DNA from: a phage
Direction: 5' to 3' (one strand)
DNA length: 64,000 bases
NCBI GenBank assembly: GCA_020279385.1
Contig: GCA_020279385.1_4762.2
Shown: positions 9,593 through 15,712 of the stretch, one piece after another
How the letters are laid out: each line of letters starts with the position of its first letter
Position numbering within the stretch: the stretch's first letter is position 1
Notes under the pieces: model-generated
What the model was told of the DNA's origin: nothing
Seen by the model: only the letters and a program-made list of their open reading frames with translations
Database searches by the model: none
Program-made: the position numbers and the translations under genes

Positions 9593-10270
9593 ATGATCAG
9601 AAACCGTCTTCCTCCAGATCCAGATATGCGAATTAATGCTAAATCTGTGTATATGTTATATTGCATGATGAAAGCTCATATGAACGGGCGTTATGATTGC
9701 GTAAAATATAATTGGAGGATGCGGTTGTCTGATGCCGCATTCAATAAACGCAGAGATAAGTATTATTTCGCAAAATTAGCGGAAAAGTACAATCTAAGAG
9801 AATTATACTTCTTATTCCTAAGCAATCTGGTAGCCAATACCGATGCATGGGTAGGTGAAATCACCGATGTTGACGCATACGGCTTTTATATGGAATACAT
9901 AGGAAAGATAACTGATGCAGCAACACGATTTGACGATGACATTAAAAGTCTGGTATACTTCTCAGAGAAACGCGGGGTTACTCTTAAAGAGCTAATTACA
10001 TACAATCCCGCAACCGAAACTAGCGGTATCTTTAAACTACTGCAAAATCGGATTATATCGTTTGAGTCGTTTATGTTGTTAGATAGCTTTCTAAATATAA
10101 TCGACGAACACGATAAGGTAGCCAAAGACTTGATTTGGCAAACTTATAGTGTTAAAATGAAGGCGTACAAGAAACTACTTGTTATTGACGCCGCAAAAGC
10201 AAGAGCATTATTTGTTAAAGTAGTTAAAGAGTGTAAAGAAATATCGAGGTTAAAAGGTGAAAACATATGA
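9593..10270 (+). CDS. 59: gp59 helicase loader
   Basis: 225 aa; KSVYMLYCMMKAHMNGRYDCVKYNWRMRLSDAAFNKRRDKYYF... closely matches T4 gp59 as recalled. Confidence 0.9.
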   Translation: MIRNRLPPDPDMRINAKSVYMLYCMMKAHMNGRYDCVKYNWRMRLSDAAFNKRRDKYYFAKLAEKYNLRELYFLFLSNLVANTDAWVGEITDVDAYGFYMEYIGKITDAATRFDDDIKSLVYFSEKRGVTLKELITYNPATETSGIFKLLQNRIISFESFMLLDSFLNIIDEHDKVAKDLIWQTYSVKMKAYKKLLVIDAAKARALFVKVVKECKEISRLKGENI

Positions 10271-10853
10271 TCCTGAATTGTATGCTCGTTGTCATGAACT
10301 CTTTAAATATGATAACGGTAAGCTGATTCGCAAGATATCGACAAACCGAAAGCATAAAGTCGGATCTAGAGCGGGTGGAGTTAATCCTAGTCATGGATAC
10401 AGATTGGTGTGTATCGATGGTAAACATCATAAAGAGCATAGAATAATTTTCTTTATGCATCATGGATACATGCCAAAATACGTTGACCATGTTAACCGAA
10501 TTATAACAGATAATCGGATTGAAAACTTGAGAGATGCGAACGAGCAACAAAACTCAAGAAATATGGGTAAACAGAAAGGTCGATCGTCTGAATATATCGG
10601 TGTTAGTCTTTATAAACGAGATGGTAAATATGTTGCCAATATTCAGGTCGAAAGAAAGAAGTTGATATATTTGGGAATATATGTTCATGAGAAAGCGGCA
10701 GCACTTGCGAGAAACTTTGTTGCTGATGCTATAGACCCAAACTTTTTCAACAAAACAGAAGTAGTTGACATTTCTCCCGAAGAGATGTTAGAATTTGAAA
10801 ATAGAAAGCCAAAACTGTTAGATATAATTGATAAAGTATTGACAAGCAATTAA
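10257..10853 (+). CDS. HNH homing endonuclease with AP2-type DNA-binding domain (free-standing, inserted between 59 and 32)
   Basis: GTG start overlapping gp59 end; HNH_3-like GYRLVCIDGKHHKEHRIIF...VDHVNRIITDNRIENLR; AP2-like SEYIGVSLYKRDGKYVANIQ...GIYVHEKAAALA. Confidence 0.8.
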   Translation: MKTYDPELYARCHELFKYDNGKLIRKISTNRKHKVGSRAGGVNPSHGYRLVCIDGKHHKEHRIIFFMHHGYMPKYVDHVNRIITDNRIENLRDANEQQNSRNMGKQKGRSSEYIGVSLYKRDGKYVANIQVERKKLIYLGIYVHEKAAALARNFVADAIDPNFFNKTEVVDISPEEMLEFENRKPKLLDIIDKVLTSN

Positions 10854-10913: not shown

Positions 10914-11888
10914 ATGAACATGTTTCGTCGTCAAGATAGCTCCAAACTGCAAGCTCAACTGGCCGCACTGAAAGGTGGCAACGGTTTCTCCAAAGAAGAT
11001 CCGAAAGAGTGGAAGATTAAGACTGATGCAGCAGGTAACGGTGAAGCCCTGATTCGCTTCCTGCCGTCTAAGACAGAAGACGGTCTGCCGATTGTGAAAC
11101 TGGTAAACCATTCCTTCAAAGTTAATGGTAAATGGTATTGGGAAAACTGCTCCAGCACCCACGGTGATTTTGATTCTTGCCCTGTGTGCAAATATATTAA
11201 CGAAAAAGATCTGTACAATACCGATAAAACCGAATGGCAACTGATTAAGCGTAAAGCGTCTTACTACGCAAATATTCTGGTACTGAAAGATCCTCAAGCA
11301 CCAGAAAATGAAGGTAAGGTATTCAAATTCCGCTTCGGTCAGAAAATTTATGATAAGATCGTTGCGATGGTGAACGTGAATACCGATATGGGCGAAGTTC
11401 CGGTAGATGTAACTTGTGTGTTCTCCGGTGCTAACTTCCTCCTGAAAGCTAAGAAGGTTGATAAACACCAGAACTATGATGATTCTCGTTTCATGCAGCA
11501 ATCACAGCTTCCGAAAATTGAAGACGAAGCATATCAGAAATATCTGATGGAAAACATGGTTGATCTGAGTGAGATTGTAGCGCCTAGCCAGTTTAAACCG
11601 TTCGATGAACTGGAAACCAAATTTAAGAAAACTATGGGCGTTTCTATGGTAGCTGGTGCTGCGGCTTCCAGTGCCGCGGCAGCGATTAACAGCCAGCTTG
11701 ACGATTTTGACGCACAGATGAATGCATTCGATTCTGGTATGACCGCAGCTAGCACTGTAGTTGGTATTAACGCAGCTAGCACGGCGTTAGATTCTTCCGC
11801 TGATGACCTGATGGCATCTCTGGATCTGGGTGGCGGTACTTCCTCCGCTTCTGATCTGGATGACCTGGATTCTCTGTTAGCGATGTAA
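10914..11888 (+). CDS. 32: gp32 single-stranded DNA-binding protein
   Basis: 324 aa; [61 protein letters not shown] match T4 gp32 as recalled; S/A/D-rich C-terminal tail. Confidence 0.95.
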
Positions 11889-11950: not shown

Positions 11951-11979
11951 TTGACATGCTGATGTTAGGATGTATAATA
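11951..11979 (+). promoter_or_regulatory. Sigma70-like early promoter
   Basis: TTGACA - 17 nt - TATAAT, then the recurrent ...ACAAACATCGAAACA...AGGAGG leader. Confidence 0.6.
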
Positions 11980-12008
11980 CAAACATCGAAACAAAGGAGG
12001 ATAAAATT

Positions 12009-13187
12009 ATGTTAGTACGTCAAGCACATGAGATTCGTATAGAAATAAAAGGAAACACGAAAACTCCCTTCTATTGGGAAAATGTTGTAAAAAATTCATG
12101 TTTGGAAGTTGGTTATTCTTTCATGGGGTTTGTTGGAGAATGGTCTGGTCTCAAAACAAAAGCTCTTATATTATGTAATAACAAGCATGAATACACATCA
12201 ACTCTAGCAAATATCAGGAAAAAAGTTTCGTGTAAGAAATGTGTGGTTGATTCTCAAAGATTAAACCTAAACCATGTGATAGAAAGAATAAAACAAGAAA
12301 CAAACGATGTATTTGTTGGTTTTGTTGGTGGGGAGTATAAAAATAGCAGAACAAGACTCATTATGAACTGTGCAAACGGACACACATACCAACCAACATA
12401 TACAGATTTCATTCATCAAAAAACAAGATGTCCTTTATGTAACGGTGGCAAGATGTATGATAAAGAAGATTCCTTATCTTATATAAATGAAAATAAAGGA
12501 GATTATAAATTTTTGGGTATAATTGGGGAATGGAAAGGAACAAAAACTAAACTTAAATTTGAGTGTCCTAATAATCACATTTACGAACAAAGTTATGATA
12601 AGTTCAAACTAGGTCGTCGGTGTCACAAATGTAGCGGAACAGCACCAATAACAAAAAGTGACCGATTAAAACAAATTGAAAAAATATGCGAAACCAACAG
12701 ACTAAAATTTATTGGGATTTCAGGAAAGTGGAAAGGTGCATTAACAAGAATACTTCTGACATGCGAACGTAACCATGAATGGGTTGTAACTATTGATAAT
12801 TTTGTTAATCGCGGAACACGCTGCCCGTTGTGTTCTAAGCATGGTTATCAGGCATTAAAGACAGGAACTCTTTATATACAGAAATTAACCAACAATGATT
12901 CCTTTGTTGGCGTGAAATTTGGAATAACAAACAAAGAAACACATGAGCGCATGAGAAACCAATCTCGTGTTTCAAAGTTCGATCACGAGATCTTTTATGA
13001 ATTGACTTTACAAGATGGTCAAAAGATCTTAGAATTAGAAAACAAAATCAAGGAAGCGATGAAAGGTAAAACTTCCTATATCTCGAAAGAAGATATGCCG
13101 GATGGCTGGACAGAGACAGTAGCGCCGTCTGAATTGAGCACTATCATGTATATCGTAAAATCTTTTGAAAAAGAGTTGACAGCGTAA
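12009..13187 (+). CDS. Four tandem zinc-ribbon repeats plus C-terminal GIY-YIG-superfamily (T5orf172-like) domain; putative homing-endonuclease-like or DNA-binding protein
   Basis: Four ~65-aa repeats each with GxxGEWxGxKTK...C..NH.Y...Y..F.....C..C; C-terminus GTLYIQKL...VGVKFGITNKETHERMRNQ...DGWTET; start reassigned to ATG 12009 after AGGAGG. Confidence 0.5.
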   Translation: MLVRQAHEIRIEIKGNTKTPFYWENVVKNSCLEVGYSFMGFVGEWSGLKTKALILCNNKHEYTSTLANIRKKVSCKKCVVDSQRLNLNHVIERIKQETNDVFVGFVGGEYKNSRTRLIMNCANGHTYQPTYTDFIHQKTRCPLCNGGKMYDKEDSLSYINENKGDYKFLGIIGEWKGTKTKLKFECPNNHIYEQSYDKFKLGRRCHKCSGTAPITKSDRLKQIEKICETNRLKFIGISGKWKGALTRILLTCERNHEWVVTIDNFVNRGTRCPLCSKHGYQALKTGTLYIQKLTNNDSFVGVKFGITNKETHERMRNQSRVSKFDHEIFYELTLQDGQKILELENKIKEAMKGKTSYISKEDMPDGWTETVAPSELSTIMYIVKSFEKELTA

Positions 13188-14149: not shown

Positions 14150-14242
14150 ATGAAAATTCTGACAGATTATGAGTGCAAACATTGTGGTGAATCTTTGATG
14201 TTTGCTGGTAGTCGGTGTTTACACTGCGGACGGGAACAATAA
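14150..14242 (+). CDS. Mini zinc-ribbon peptide (30 aa)
   Basis: MKILTDYECKHCGESLMFAGSRCLHCGREQ; CxxC-x13-CxxC; stop overlaps next ATG (TAATG). Confidence 0.3.
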   Translation: MKILTDYECKHCGESLMFAGSRCLHCGREQ

Positions 14243-14505
14243 TGAAAATCAGTATTATTCGATTATGGTCGGCAACCCATGAAAACTACGCAGTAGCAGA
14301 AGATCTTTACGGGTTGCAATATCTCTATGATGAATCGAAAGCGTCATGGTTTCCTGTACAAGAAAATAGCGATATATCAAGACCTGTTACTGTATTCGGT
14401 CCAGACGATATTTTTATTAACATTAGCGAGACAGTAGCAAAACTGCGTAAGAAAGCAAAGAAAAAGGGGAAGTGGGATGAAAGAATATTTGAAACTGTTA
14501 CGTGA
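14242..14505 (+). CDS. Hypothetical protein (87 aa)
   Basis: Coupled via TAATG to upstream mini-ORF; track ORF 14215..14505 probably starts at this internal ATG. Confidence 0.4.
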   Translation: MKISIIRLWSATHENYAVAEDLYGLQYLYDESKASWFPVQENSDISRPVTVFGPDDIFINISETVAKLRKKAKKKGKWDERIFETVT

Positions 14506-15712
14506 TGTTATTGATAATGGCTGGCCTCGTGAAGACCGCACGGGGGTAGGTACGCTCTCTAAATTCGGCGCAGAGATGCGAATTGATTTAAGCAAGGGTT
14601 TCCCCTTACTGACCACTAAAAAGATGGCTACAGCCTCTGTAATTGGCGAATTGCTATGGTTTATGGAGGGATCACTTGACCGCCGTCGCTTACAGGAAAT
14701 TACACGCGGCAAGTTTGACGAGGAAGCCTTTGATATTTGGCGCGGCAACTGTCTTGATATGAAAGAAAAGAATCCCTTGCGATTCAATGGTTATAATGTC
14801 GGCAATATGTATGGTATGGCGTGGCGACGCAAACCGATTCATCCACACGGTGAAATCAAAATTAAGCGAGTTAAGAGCAAATATGCACATACATTTAAGC
14901 ACCCGTGGGTAGAAGACTTTACGCCAACCAATGAAACAGAAGACCGTTTATGTGCTATCTGGCGTGGTATGCGTTATGAAGAGTTTGATTCTGAATATAA
15001 TCAATTCTTAGTAGCCGATCACTGGAAGACTCAATCTAATTTTGTTAATGATGCATATTGCTTGTGGGGATTCCAGGAATGGGTAGATGATGGTTATTTC
15101 GGTTATCTGCTTGATAGTGATTATCTGGGTGGGGATATTTTAGCACCAGATACCACGATCTTTGCTAGTATGGACGTAGACACATCAAGCACTAAAGACG
15201 ATGAAGAATATGTCTATCGCCCGAAGATTTGGGAAGACCAGTTACAAAAAGTTATTGACATGATCAAGAATGATCCGTATAGTCGTCGTATTATCATTGA
15301 TTCATGGAACGTACAGGAAACGCATAATGCTGTGTTAGGTGTATGTCATCCGATGGTACAGTTTTATGTTTCCAACGACAACAAATTGAGTTGTTTATTT
15401 TTCATGCGTTCGAATGATCTCTTTTTAGGGAATCCGTTCAACGTAGCGAGCTATGCACTGTTAACGCATATCATCGCGAAGATTTGCGGGTTAGAAGTTG
15501 GCGAACTGGTTTATCAGTGTGGGGATTGCCACATTTACAAAAACCATTTTGATCAAGTTATGGAACAGTTAAGCCGTGTTCCGTTTGATAAACCAACAAT
15601 TGAGTTGCCGGAATTTAAGTCTTTAGATGAGGTATTGACAAAGACTCCGAAAGACTTTAAAATTCACAACTATCAAAGCCATCCAGCAATCACCGCTCAA
15701 ATGGCAGTATAA
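14477..15712 (+). CDS. td: Thymidylate synthase with ~130-aa internal insertion
   Basis: TS blocks DRTGVGT, GFPLLTTKK, RRIIIDSWNV, CHPMVQFYV, LFLGNPFNVASYALLTHI, continuous frame; 411 aa versus ~286 in T4. Confidence 0.9.
   Translation: MKEYLKLLRDVIDNGWPREDRTGVGTLSKFGAEMRIDLSKGFPLLTTKKMATASVIGELLWFMEGSLDRRRLQEITRGKFDEEAFDIWRGNCLDMKEKNPLRFNGYNVGNMYGMAWRRKPIHPHGEIKIKRVKSKYAHTFKHPWVEDFTPTNETEDRLCAIWRGMRYEEFDSEYNQFLVADHWKTQSNFVNDAYCLWGFQEWVDDGYFGYLLDSDYLGGDILAPDTTIFASMDVDTSSTKDDEEYVYRPKIWEDQLQKVIDMIKNDPYSRRIIIDSWNVQETHNAVLGVCHPMVQFYVSNDNKLSCLFFMRSNDLFLGNPFNVASYALLTHIIAKICGLEVGELVYQCGDCHIYKNHFDQVMEQLSRVPFDKPTIELPEFKSLDEVLTKTPKDFKIHNYQSHPAITAQMAV

What the first reader, a model, noticed from the sequence alone, without database searches (positions are those of the whole stretch)
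14820..15230. Thymidylate synthase carries a ~130-residue in-frame insertion
The td product is 411 aa versus about 286 in T4 and 264 in E. coli. The extra segment lies between the conserved YGMAWRR region and the DPYSRRIIIDSWNV block, the site where some thymidylate synthases carry a small-domain insertion, but this one is much larger. It does not look like an intein (no Cys/Ser start or His-Asn end) and the frame is continuous, so it is not an intron. It may be an accessory domain.
Basis: partly seen in the sequence, partly recalled or inferred. Interest (0 to 1): 0.55.

Follow-up and report, generated by a model that had tools for sequence, protein, structure and literature searches.

The report
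Dead homing-endonuclease domain inside thymidylate synthase
The extra 132 residues in this phage's thymidylate synthase are the shrunken, inactive remains of a mobile endonuclease-like gene that inserted in frame into a surface loop and is never spliced out, a way of carrying such elements that I could not find described.

Summary
The window is a Krischvirus (RB49-like) genome. Its td gene (14477-15712) encodes a 411-aa thymidylate synthase with a 132-aa in-frame insert (aa 119-250, nt 14831-15226) after YGMAWRR.

The insert is neither an intron nor an intein. It is translated and under purifying selection (dN/dS about 0.2, against about 0.04 for the core). AlphaFold models it confidently as a compact domain on a two-strand stalk.

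Profile searches show it is a cut-down copy of a 190-280-aa module inserted at the same loop in more than 100 phage thymidylate synthase genes. These include Klebsiella jumbo phage KP13-7, Vibrio phage D69 and Bacillus phage Kioshi. The same module forms free-standing phage genes annotated as homing endonucleases, which sit between nrdA and nrdB or between primase and polymerase.

Full-length inserts keep an N-terminal beta-barrel, a conserved LDKD...N motif and a C-terminal NUMOD/HTH module. The window's copy has lost both flanking modules and the motif (LDSD), and it is strongly acidic.

Insert-bearing and insert-less enzymes interleave on the tree, and some inserts are more alike than their host genes, which suggests mobility.

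Verdict: a nuclease-dead relic, possibly structurally entrenched. No literature on it was found.

The parts
14477..15712 (+). td gene: thymidylate synthase, 411 aa plus stop (48.0 kDa; 32.4 kDa without the insert)
14477..14830 (+). N-terminal part of the TS core (aa 1-118), ending in YGMAWRR
14831..15226 (+). In-frame insert (aa 119-250): relic of a homing-endonuclease-like module
14831..14866 (+). Stalk strand 1 (KPIHPHGEIKIK, aa 119-130). P120, P123 and G125 are conserved across insert-bearing TS
14933..14986 (+). Long helix ETEDRLCAIWRGMRYEEF (aa 153-170), carrying the family's invariant W..M. The RCYNP segment that follows in full-length copies is largely deleted here
14990..15001 (+). SEYN (aa 172-175): a 4-residue indel polymorphic among Krischvirus phages, in the only stretch of lower model confidence
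15020..15097 (+). Helices HWKTQSNFVNDAY / CLWGFQEWVDDGY (aa 182-207): family W..F..F motif plus the LWGFQExVD motif seen in the TS-embedded copies of clades A-C, the best-conserved part of the insert
15107..15166 (+). Degenerate beta-beta element LLDSDY...APDTTIFA (aa 211-230). It corresponds to LDKDY...YSPxTCxF in full-length copies; Lys, Tyr and Cys are lost
15167..15208 (+). Acidic, Ser-rich coil SMDVDTSSTKDDEE (aa 231-244). It replaces the helix with the conserved Asn and the whole C-terminal NUMOD/HTH-like module of full-length copies
15209..15235 (+). Stalk strand 2 (YVYRPKIWE, aa 245-253), modelled as the second long strand of the stalk; RPxI is conserved across insert-bearing TS
15236..15709 (+). 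C-terminal part of the TS core (DQLQKVID onward), with SRR, catalytic Cys290, RSND, PFN and HIY

Best explanation
The insert is the translated, unspliced and catalytically dead remnant of a phage homing-endonuclease-like gene. That gene once inserted in frame into the variable surface loop of thymidylate synthase between YGxQWRxW and IDQL (E. coli residues 102-108).

Full-length versions of the cassette have five parts:
- an entry beta-strand;
- a Tudor/SH3-like beta-barrel;
- a helical W..M..RCY / W..F..F core;
- a beta-beta-alpha element carrying LDKD...N;
- a NUMOD/HTH-like DNA-binding tail followed by an exit beta-strand.

In the Krischvirus lineage the barrel, the tail, the RCYNP loop and the LDKD...N residues have been lost. 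A 132-residue helical core remains, held away from the enzyme on a two-strand stalk.

Shown:
- homology to the full-length inserts and to free-standing genes;
- the same insertion site in every insert-bearing TS examined;
- translation under purifying selection;
- a confident fold;
- an intact TS catalytic set.

Inferred:
- the ancestral cassette was a mobile homing element;
- the relic no longer cuts or binds DNA;
- it persists because it is structurally entrenched, since in-frame partial deletions are tolerated while a clean excision is rare, rather than because it contributes chemistry.
For: Homology
- tblastn of the insert finds KP13-7 thyA (E 4e-12, 95% coverage) and the Vibrio D69 gene (E 1e-5).
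- Both are TS-family genes with larger inserts at the same loop.
- The KP13-7 insert matches PHROG 'HNH endonuclease' families at 1.7e-33 and 1e-25.
- An HMM built from 23 free-standing proteins only scores it at 32.7 bits (E 3e-6).
- The BFVD fold search gives 52 hits at E <= 1e-3, including proteins named homing endonuclease.
- Free-standing copies sit between nrdA and nrdB, and between primase and DNA polymerase.

Reduction
- The alignment shows nested deletions.
- The core tree shows that short inserts arose twice, each time sister to full-length ones.
- LDKD is kept in nearly all long inserts and in all free-standing copies listed, but in none of 11 short or intermediate ones.
- The central module has net charge -14 (pI 4.05), against pI mostly 8-9.5 for full-length inserts and free-standing proteins.

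Translation and folding
- dN/dS is about 0.2 in the insert and 0.03-0.08 in the N-core.
- The AlphaFold model has pLDDT 95.3 and pTM 0.93, with the insert well ordered.

Not spliced.

TS intact: R21, E58, R270 and C290 are invariant across 139 sequences, 45 of them insert-bearing.
Against: - No nuclease or homing activity has been shown for any member of this module family.
- Pfam HNH models do not match it.
- hhalign against the window's own canonical HNH_3-AP2 protein gives probability 0.1.
- Purifying selection, two independent reductions to the same core, and a well-conserved LWGFQExVD motif in TS-embedded copies could equally mean that the relic has gained a function.
- No model coordinates or PAE were available, so contact with the TS core is untested.
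Confidence: 0.78

Rival explanations
1. Exapted accessory domain. The relic has been recruited for a new role, for example protein-protein contacts in the phage dNTP-synthesis complex, regulation of TS, or acting as an acidic decoy surface. It is maintained for that role.
For: - dN/dS is about 0.2, well below 1.
- The insert is fixed in all 59 Krischvirus records.
- Two lineages independently converged on the same retained core.
- The LWGFQExVD motif is highly conserved in TS-embedded copies but variable in free-standing ones.
- The module has an unusual net charge of -14.
- pTM of 0.93 suggests a fixed orientation relative to the core.
Against: - Other short-insert lineages are not acidic: -3 to -6 in the nearest relatives and +4 and +7 in the second lineage. 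No common new surface is evident.
- The conserved positions are mostly buried-type residues (W, F, L, P, G), as expected from selection for folding alone.
- No partner or phenotype is known.
Confidence: 0.3
2. Still an active mobile element: the Krischvirus Td-insert fusion cuts insert-less td alleles and homes.
For: A divergent mosaic patch lies immediately downstream of the insert (aa 258-352) and assorts independently of the indel in the insert, so recombination is frequent in this gene.
Against: - The LDKD...N motif is lost (LDSD, and Asn to Asp).
- The helix of the beta-beta-alpha element is missing, and both DNA-binding modules are deleted.
- The module has pI 4.
- No insert-less Krischvirus td exists to serve as a target.
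Confidence: 0.03
3. The segment is removed after transcription or translation, by an unrecognised intron, intein-like splicing or translational bypass.
For: T4 td carries a group I intron, and inteins are common in phage nucleotide-metabolism genes (established knowledge).
Against: - No Rfam match, and the RNA fold is not unusual.
- No Hint domain or junction nucleophiles.
- Synonymous changes exceed non-synonymous changes per site within the insert.
- The insert is modelled as a folded domain continuous with the TS core.
Confidence: 0.02
4. Unrelated lineage-specific loop elaboration, whose similarity to endonuclease-like proteins is spurious or convergent.
For: The direct PHROG match of the window insert is weak (E 0.1), and there is no Pfam hit.
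Against: - Custom profiles give E 7e-18 and 3e-6.
- Intermediates of graded length connect the short and full-length forms at the identical site.
Confidence: 0.03

Closest known systems
Inteins carrying homing-endonuclease domains in phage nucleotide-metabolism genes (e.g. ThyX, RNR, DNA polymerase)
   Same: A mobile, in-frame insertion in a conserved enzyme, with sporadic distribution and a tendency to decay into shortened relics.
   Different: There is no Hint splicing domain and there are no junction nucleophiles. The insert stays in the mature protein, tolerated because it sits in a surface loop on a beta-stalk.
Group I introns with I-TevI (T4 td) and I-BmoI (Bacillus mojavensis thyA)
   Same: The same host gene family is targeted by endonuclease-based mobile elements.
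   Different: Those are RNA-spliced and carry GIY-YIG enzymes. By my recollection of the T4 intron position they insert near the RSxDxFLG|xPFN coding region (window aa 318/319), not at aa 118/119. Here no RNA element is present.
mobE insertion that splits nrdA in Aeromonas phage Aeh1 ('genes in pieces'; known to me from the literature)
   Same: A free-standing-type endonuclease gene sits inside the coding sequence of an essential nucleotide-metabolism gene, without an intron or intein, and the enzyme stays functional.
   Different: That insertion splits the host gene into two polypeptides. Here the cassette is fused in frame on both sides.
Free-standing phage homing endonucleases of the HNH + NUMOD/AP2 type (I-HmuI; T4 mobE between nrdA and nrdB; PHROG 2081/953/374)
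   Same: The module is homologous. Full-length inserts have C-terminal I-HmuI NUMOD-like or HTH tails. Free-standing copies occupy the same intergenic niches.
   Different: The module has Lys where HNH enzymes have the catalytic His, and it is not recognised by Pfam HNH models. The window copy lacks even that motif and all the DNA-binding tails.
Lineage-specific inserts of thymidylate synthase (L. casei 50-residue small domain; short eukaryotic loop inserts)
   Same: These are surface-loop length variation in an otherwise very conserved enzyme. From my knowledge of the human sequence, the 8-residue eukaryotic insert (human 146-153) lies in this same loop.
   Different: The L. casei insert is about 15 residues upstream. 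None of these inserts is related to endonuclease-like genes, and none approaches 130-280 residues.
WHO elements / HO of yeasts (PMC7282813)
   Same: A homing-type element that uses neither an intron nor an intein to spare its host gene.
   Different: WHO elements replace the 3' end of FBA1 rather than residing as an internal domain. They are LAGLIDADG/intein-derived and eukaryotic.

Membership tests
Thymidylate synthase ThyA (PF00303 / TIGR03284) | Profile match over both halves of the fold, above the curated cut-off | tested here: met
   Pfam 281.1 bits (cut-off 24.3). TIGR03284 275.9 bits (cut-off 108.35).
Thymidylate synthase ThyA (PF00303 / TIGR03284) | Catalytic set: DRTG Arg, Glu58, Tyr of VYG, SRR pair, Cys-His, RSxD, PFN, HxY | tested here: met
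   All are present in the alignments. R21, E58, R270 and C290 are invariant in 139 sequences. Gln165 of E. coli is Met here, as in related phage sequences.
Thymidylate synthase ThyA (PF00303 / TIGR03284) | dUMP to dTMP activity | not testable with these tools
   Needs an enzyme assay or thyA complementation.
Intein | Hint domain (blocks A, B, F, G) | tested here: not met
   No Pfam family hits the window insert or the full-length inserts beyond NUMOD/HTH.
Intein | N-terminal Cys/Ser/Thr, and C-terminal His-Asn followed by Cys/Ser/Thr | tested here: not met
   The junctions are R118|K119 and K250|I251. The junction residues vary among homologues.
Group I intron | Covariance-model match or a conserved RNA structure | tested here: not met
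   Rfam at E <= 1 finds nothing in td here or in three full-length loci. The RNA fold z-score is -1.44.
Group I intron | The sequence is not constrained as protein in the host frame | tested here: not met
   The frame is open (p about 1.7e-4 by chance), with dN/dS about 0.2.
HNH / His-Me finger endonuclease | Beta-beta-alpha-metal fold | tested here: inconclusive
HNH / His-Me finger endonuclease | Catalytic His at the end of strand 1 | tested here: not met
   The family consensus is LDKD, with Lys nearly invariant. The window has LDSD.
HNH / His-Me finger endonuclease | Match to curated HNH profiles | tested here: not met
   No Pfam HNH hit on inserts or free-standing homologues. hhalign against the window's HNH_3-AP2 protein gives probability 0.1.
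Phage homing-endonuclease-like 'LDKD' module (PHROG 2081/953/374) | Profile similarity to the module | tested here: met
   KP13-7 insert 1.7e-33. The window insert scores only E 0.1 against phrog_2081, but 7e-18 and 3e-6 against custom profiles. BFVD fold hits support the relationship.
Phage homing-endonuclease-like 'LDKD' module (PHROG 2081/953/374) | Conserved LDKD...YSPxTC...N motif | tested here: not met
   The window has LDSD...LAPDTT...D. The motif is likewise degenerate in all 11 short or intermediate inserts.
Phage homing-endonuclease-like 'LDKD' module (PHROG 2081/953/374) | Accessory DNA-binding modules (N-terminal barrel; C-terminal NUMOD, AP2 or HTH) | tested here: not met
   These are present in full-length inserts (P0040, PF22083 at 30.4 bits) and in free-standing genes. 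They are deleted in the window.
Phage homing-endonuclease-like 'LDKD' module (PHROG 2081/953/374) | Site-specific DNA cleavage and biased inheritance | not testable with these tools
   Only indirect signs are available: interleaving with insert-less TS, and insert identity above core identity in 85 of 496 pairs.
L. casei-type TS small domain | Insertion between the IWDEW helix and LGxVYG (E. coli residues about 86-90) | tested here: not met
   The insert follows YGMAWRR, so it lies after E. coli W101.

The most novel reading that the evidence does not exclude
The full-length relatives are a previously undescribed kind of mobile element: a 'splice-less' homing cassette. It colonises one permissive loop of thymidylate synthase, is expressed as an internal domain of a still-active enzyme, and uses a Lys-for-His beta-beta-alpha nuclease to home into insert-less TS genes across very different phages. 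The Krischvirus insert is the fossil of that cassette, entrenched or co-opted after the nuclease died.
Probability: 0.4. Interest if true: 0.8.

Novelty: new variant of a known kind. Interest (0 to 1): 0.62.

Why it matters
Homing endonuclease genes are thought to survive inside essential genes only by hiding in self-splicing introns or inteins, or by sitting between genes. Here the cassette appears simply to be tolerated as an extra domain in a surface loop.

It occurs at one loop in more than 100 thymidylate synthase lineages. It shows a visible decay series, from full-length forms with the motif intact down to a 130-residue core with the motif dead.

If the full-length forms are active, this is a third way for such elements to spare their host gene, and a natural example of domain insertion into a well-studied drug-target enzyme.

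For annotation, it explains why RB49-like td genes are 410 aa long, and why some TS-family genes are labelled 'HNH endonuclease'.

Tried and rejected
- The word-indexed homologue search with the insert alone found nothing, which is a limit of the index.
- Pfam and NCBIfam give nothing on the insert.
- A profile search of PDB sequences found nothing at E <= 10.
- Foldseek against the PDB found nothing significant.
- The afdb50 library was not available.
- hhalign of the module family against the window's canonical HNH_3-AP2 protein showed no relation. I therefore do not file the module as HNH.
- I tested whether the RB49-type allele of the downstream mosaic patch came recently from T-even td. 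It matches those genes at only about 70% nucleotide identity over half its length, so this is not supported.
- MAFFT aligned a KDDFGS stretch in the 30-residue loops of some 'insert-less' TS to LDKDYFGS. I judged this too short to call an ultimate relic.
- A first attempt at comparing insert and core identity used wrong E. coli column limits. It was redone with P0008 boundaries.
- Seven literature searches and four papers read gave no description of this insert.

Full report
**What is there**

The window is a Krischvirus (RB49-like, T4-type) phage. The best match to the gene is Escherichia phage Skers at 99.5%, with RB49 at 91.8%.

The gene order around the finding is:
- gene 59
- an HNH-AP2 gene
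- gene 32
- a CapR-domain gene
- a small ORF
- frd
- a small ORF
- td
- nrdA

.

The td ORF (14477-15712, +) is one open frame of 411 aa. Pfam Thymidylat_synt covers residues 2-411 at 281 bits. Solved thymidylate synthases align only to residues 3-88 and 254-411.

A multiple alignment with E. coli, T4 and about 30 relatives puts the extra segment at aa 119-250, which is nt 14831-15226. It lies directly after YGMAWRR and before (W)EDQLQKVID.

In E. coli numbering this is the PTPDGRH loop, residues 102-108. Insert-less enzymes have 3-31 residues in this loop.

**Is it real and is it protein?**

- An open frame of 132 codons has a chance probability of about 1.7e-4 at this composition, and the other frames hold 4-19 stops.
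- All 59 matching phage records cover at least 80% of the gene.
- Among seven Krischvirus td genes, dN/dS in the insert is about 0.2 (range 0.07-0.7), against 0.03-0.08 typically in the N-terminal core. The insert is therefore translated and constrained, but 4-5 times more loosely than the enzyme.
- Rfam finds no intron at E <= 1, either here or in three loci with full-length inserts. The RNA fold is unremarkable (z = -1.44).
- No Hint domain is found. The junction residues (R118|K119, K250|I251) are not nucleophiles or His-Asn, and they vary among homologues.
- GC content is uniform across the gene.

**Where the insert comes from**

A tblastn search with the insert found all the Krischvirus genomes and three more distant sets of hits:
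- the thyA of Klebsiella jumbo phage KP13-7 (31.7% identity, E 4e-12);
- a Vibrio phage D69 gene annotated 'HNH endonuclease' (E 1e-5);
- weaker matches to genes annotated HNH endonuclease or DNA-binding protein.

The KP13-7 (517 aa) and D69 (477 aa) genes, and the Bacillus phage Kioshi gp41 (548 aa), are all TS-family proteins with larger inserts at the same loop.

The KP13-7 insert matches PHROG families annotated 'HNH endonuclease' at 1.7e-33, 1e-25 and 1.7e-20.

Database searches then recovered a large set of related genes:
- 45 insert-bearing TS in the first set.
- A further 58 among the top 144 new representatives of an exhaustive profile search. In every one the TS profile is interrupted at the same position, about 118-120.
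- In total the module family has 122,143 representative clusters at E <= 1e-3.
- The module occurs in 1,441 of 50,697 phage records.

Free-standing members are 170-340 aa. They carry AP2 or I-HmuI NUMOD-like tails. They lie in classic free-standing endonuclease niches: between nrdA and nrdB in phage VEcB, and between primase and DNA polymerase in Vibrio phage D391.

**Anatomy and decay**

The full-length insert of P0008 (the KP13-7 type) models at pLDDT 93.8 and pTM 0.89. In order, it has:
- an entry strand;
- a small beta-barrel, whose weak fold matches are Tudor/SH3-like domains;
- a long helix carrying W..M..RCY;
- helices carrying W..F..F;
- a strand-strand-helix element carrying LDKD...YSPxTCxF...N;
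- a small C-terminal module;
- an exit strand.

In some relatives the C-terminal module is recognised as I-HmuI NUMOD-like or HTH.

The whole window protein models at pLDDT 95.3 and pTM 0.93. Its insert consists of:
- long strands at 119-130 and 245-253, which I read as a two-strand stalk;
- helices at 153-170, 181-193 and 199-204;
- short strands at 210-213 and 228-231.

There is no barrel, no helix after the second short strand, and no C-terminal module.

The alignment shows nested deletions. On a tree of TS cores, inserts of 125-145 aa arose twice independently, each time as sister to 243-246-aa forms. Intermediate forms of 174-198 aa lack only the barrel.

The LDKD motif is intact in nearly all long inserts and in all free-standing proteins listed. 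It is degenerate in every short or intermediate insert:
- LDSD in the window and P0001;
- LDCD in P0002;
- LTQK in P0003;
- LSCD in P0004;
- LSCK in P0005;
- LSLV in P0006;
- LDKN in P0007;
- LNKS in P0013;
- LDAE in P0017 and P0018.

.

The window's central module is strongly acidic, with net charge -14 and pI 4.05. Most full-length inserts and free-standing proteins have pI 8-9.5. I infer that the relic neither cuts nor binds DNA.

**Evidence that the ancestral cassette was mobile (indirect)**

- Insert-bearing and insert-less enzymes interleave. P0034 is 81% identical in its core to the insert-less P0095, but only 66% identical to the nearest insert-bearing TS. P0043 and P0040 behave similarly.
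- In vertically related pairs the insert diverges faster than the core (window against P0003: core 68%, insert 50%).
- Yet in 85 of 496 pairs of full-length forms the inserts are more alike than the cores. Examples are P0142 against P0154 (44% against 28%) and P0146 against P0151 (54% against 41%).
- The element sits at the same loop in very different TS-family clades, including the divergent Kioshi and P0142 types.
- Two contexts that I examined are phage-like, one on a 308-kb contig.

**What I do not claim**

The module is annotated 'HNH', but this is not established:
- Pfam HNH models do not match.
- hhalign against the window's own canonical HNH_3-AP2 protein finds no relation.
- The position of the catalytic His holds a nearly invariant Lys.

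Membership of the HNH superfamily is therefore unproven. 'Homing-endonuclease-like' rests on architecture, genomic niche, distribution and database names. No activity is known.

**Most likely mechanism**

The window's Td is an active thymidylate synthase. Its catalytic set is intact, and R21, E58, R270 and C290 are invariant over 139 sequences. It carries a folded but inert passenger domain.

I judge the relic reading most likely (0.78 for origin and inactivity). A gained role remains open (about 0.3) for these reasons:
- there is purifying selection on the insert;
- two lineages converged on the same retained core;
- the LWGFQExVD motif is conserved in the TS-embedded copies of clades A-C but not in free-standing proteins.

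No coordinates or PAE were available, so I could not test whether that motif packs against the enzyme.

**Novelty**

Seven full-text searches and four papers read turned up no description of this insert, or of in-frame unspliced endonuclease-like cassettes in TS. That library is incomplete.

The closest precedents are:
- inteins;
- the td and thyA introns with I-TevI and I-BmoI;
- the mobE-split nrdA of phage Aeh1;
- the yeast WHO elements (PMC7282813).

I rate it a new variant of a known kind.

Noticed in passing
window 15248-15532 (td aa 258-352): There is a mosaic patch just downstream of the insert, with two alleles among Krischvirus td genes. Synonymous sites are saturated and dN is 0.23. 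The window's allele occurs in only 9 of 59 records, all at least 99% alike. The patch assorts independently of the SEYN indel. It spans the position homologous to the T4 td intron site (window aa 318/319; the T4 position is from my memory). The donor is unknown, and T-even td genes match at only about 70%.
   Followed up: partly
window 10257-10853 (+): A canonical free-standing HNH_3 (43.6 bits) + AP2 endonuclease gene lies between gene 59 (9593-10270) and gene 32 (10914-11888).
   Followed up: partly
window 11970-13187 (+): A 405-aa ORF has four CapR homology domains and a treble-clef zinc-finger domain (DUF4379). By eye its C-terminus looks T5orf172/GIY-YIG-like. RB49 has a gene (ORF239c) at the corresponding position, but in JSE gene 32 directly abuts the next gene, so this gene looks optional or mobile.
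   Followed up: partly
window 14990-15001 (td aa 172-175, SEYN): A four-residue indel inside the insert is polymorphic among Krischvirus phages. It is present in the window, RB49, SSG23 and KFS-EC, and absent in JSE, Phi1 and JK32. It lies in the only stretch of lower model confidence.
   Followed up: yes
window 14215-14505 (+): A 96-aa ORF with no Pfam hit overlaps the td start by 29 nt. RB49, JSE and others annotate a hypothetical protein at the same position.
   Followed up: no
L002 2138-3571 (Vibrio phage D69): A TS-family gene with a 196-aa insert is annotated only as 'HNH endonuclease'. Its core departs from TS consensus (ETRSG for DRTG, MYPVAFR), so it may not be a plain dTMP synthase.
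   Followed up: partly
L017 3019-3675 (phage VEcB) and L016 2504-3028 (Vibrio phage D391): Free-standing homologues of the insert module lie between nrdA and nrdB, the same niche as T4 mobE, and between the DNA primase and DNA polymerase genes.
   Followed up: partly
proteins P0123, P0129, P0128 (metagenomic): P0123 and P0129 carry two tandem copies of the module. P0128 is a 259-aa ORF made of a Kioshi-type insert plus about 25 residues of downstream TS sequence, which suggests a disrupted or split TS gene in a related Bacillus phage.
   Followed up: no
proteins P0199, P0225, P0234, P0239, P0246, P0268, P0278 and others: Some insert-bearing TS have a second interruption of about 20-45 residues at TS profile positions about 165-171. 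P0246 (739 aa) and P0278 (663 aa) are larger still.
   Followed up: no
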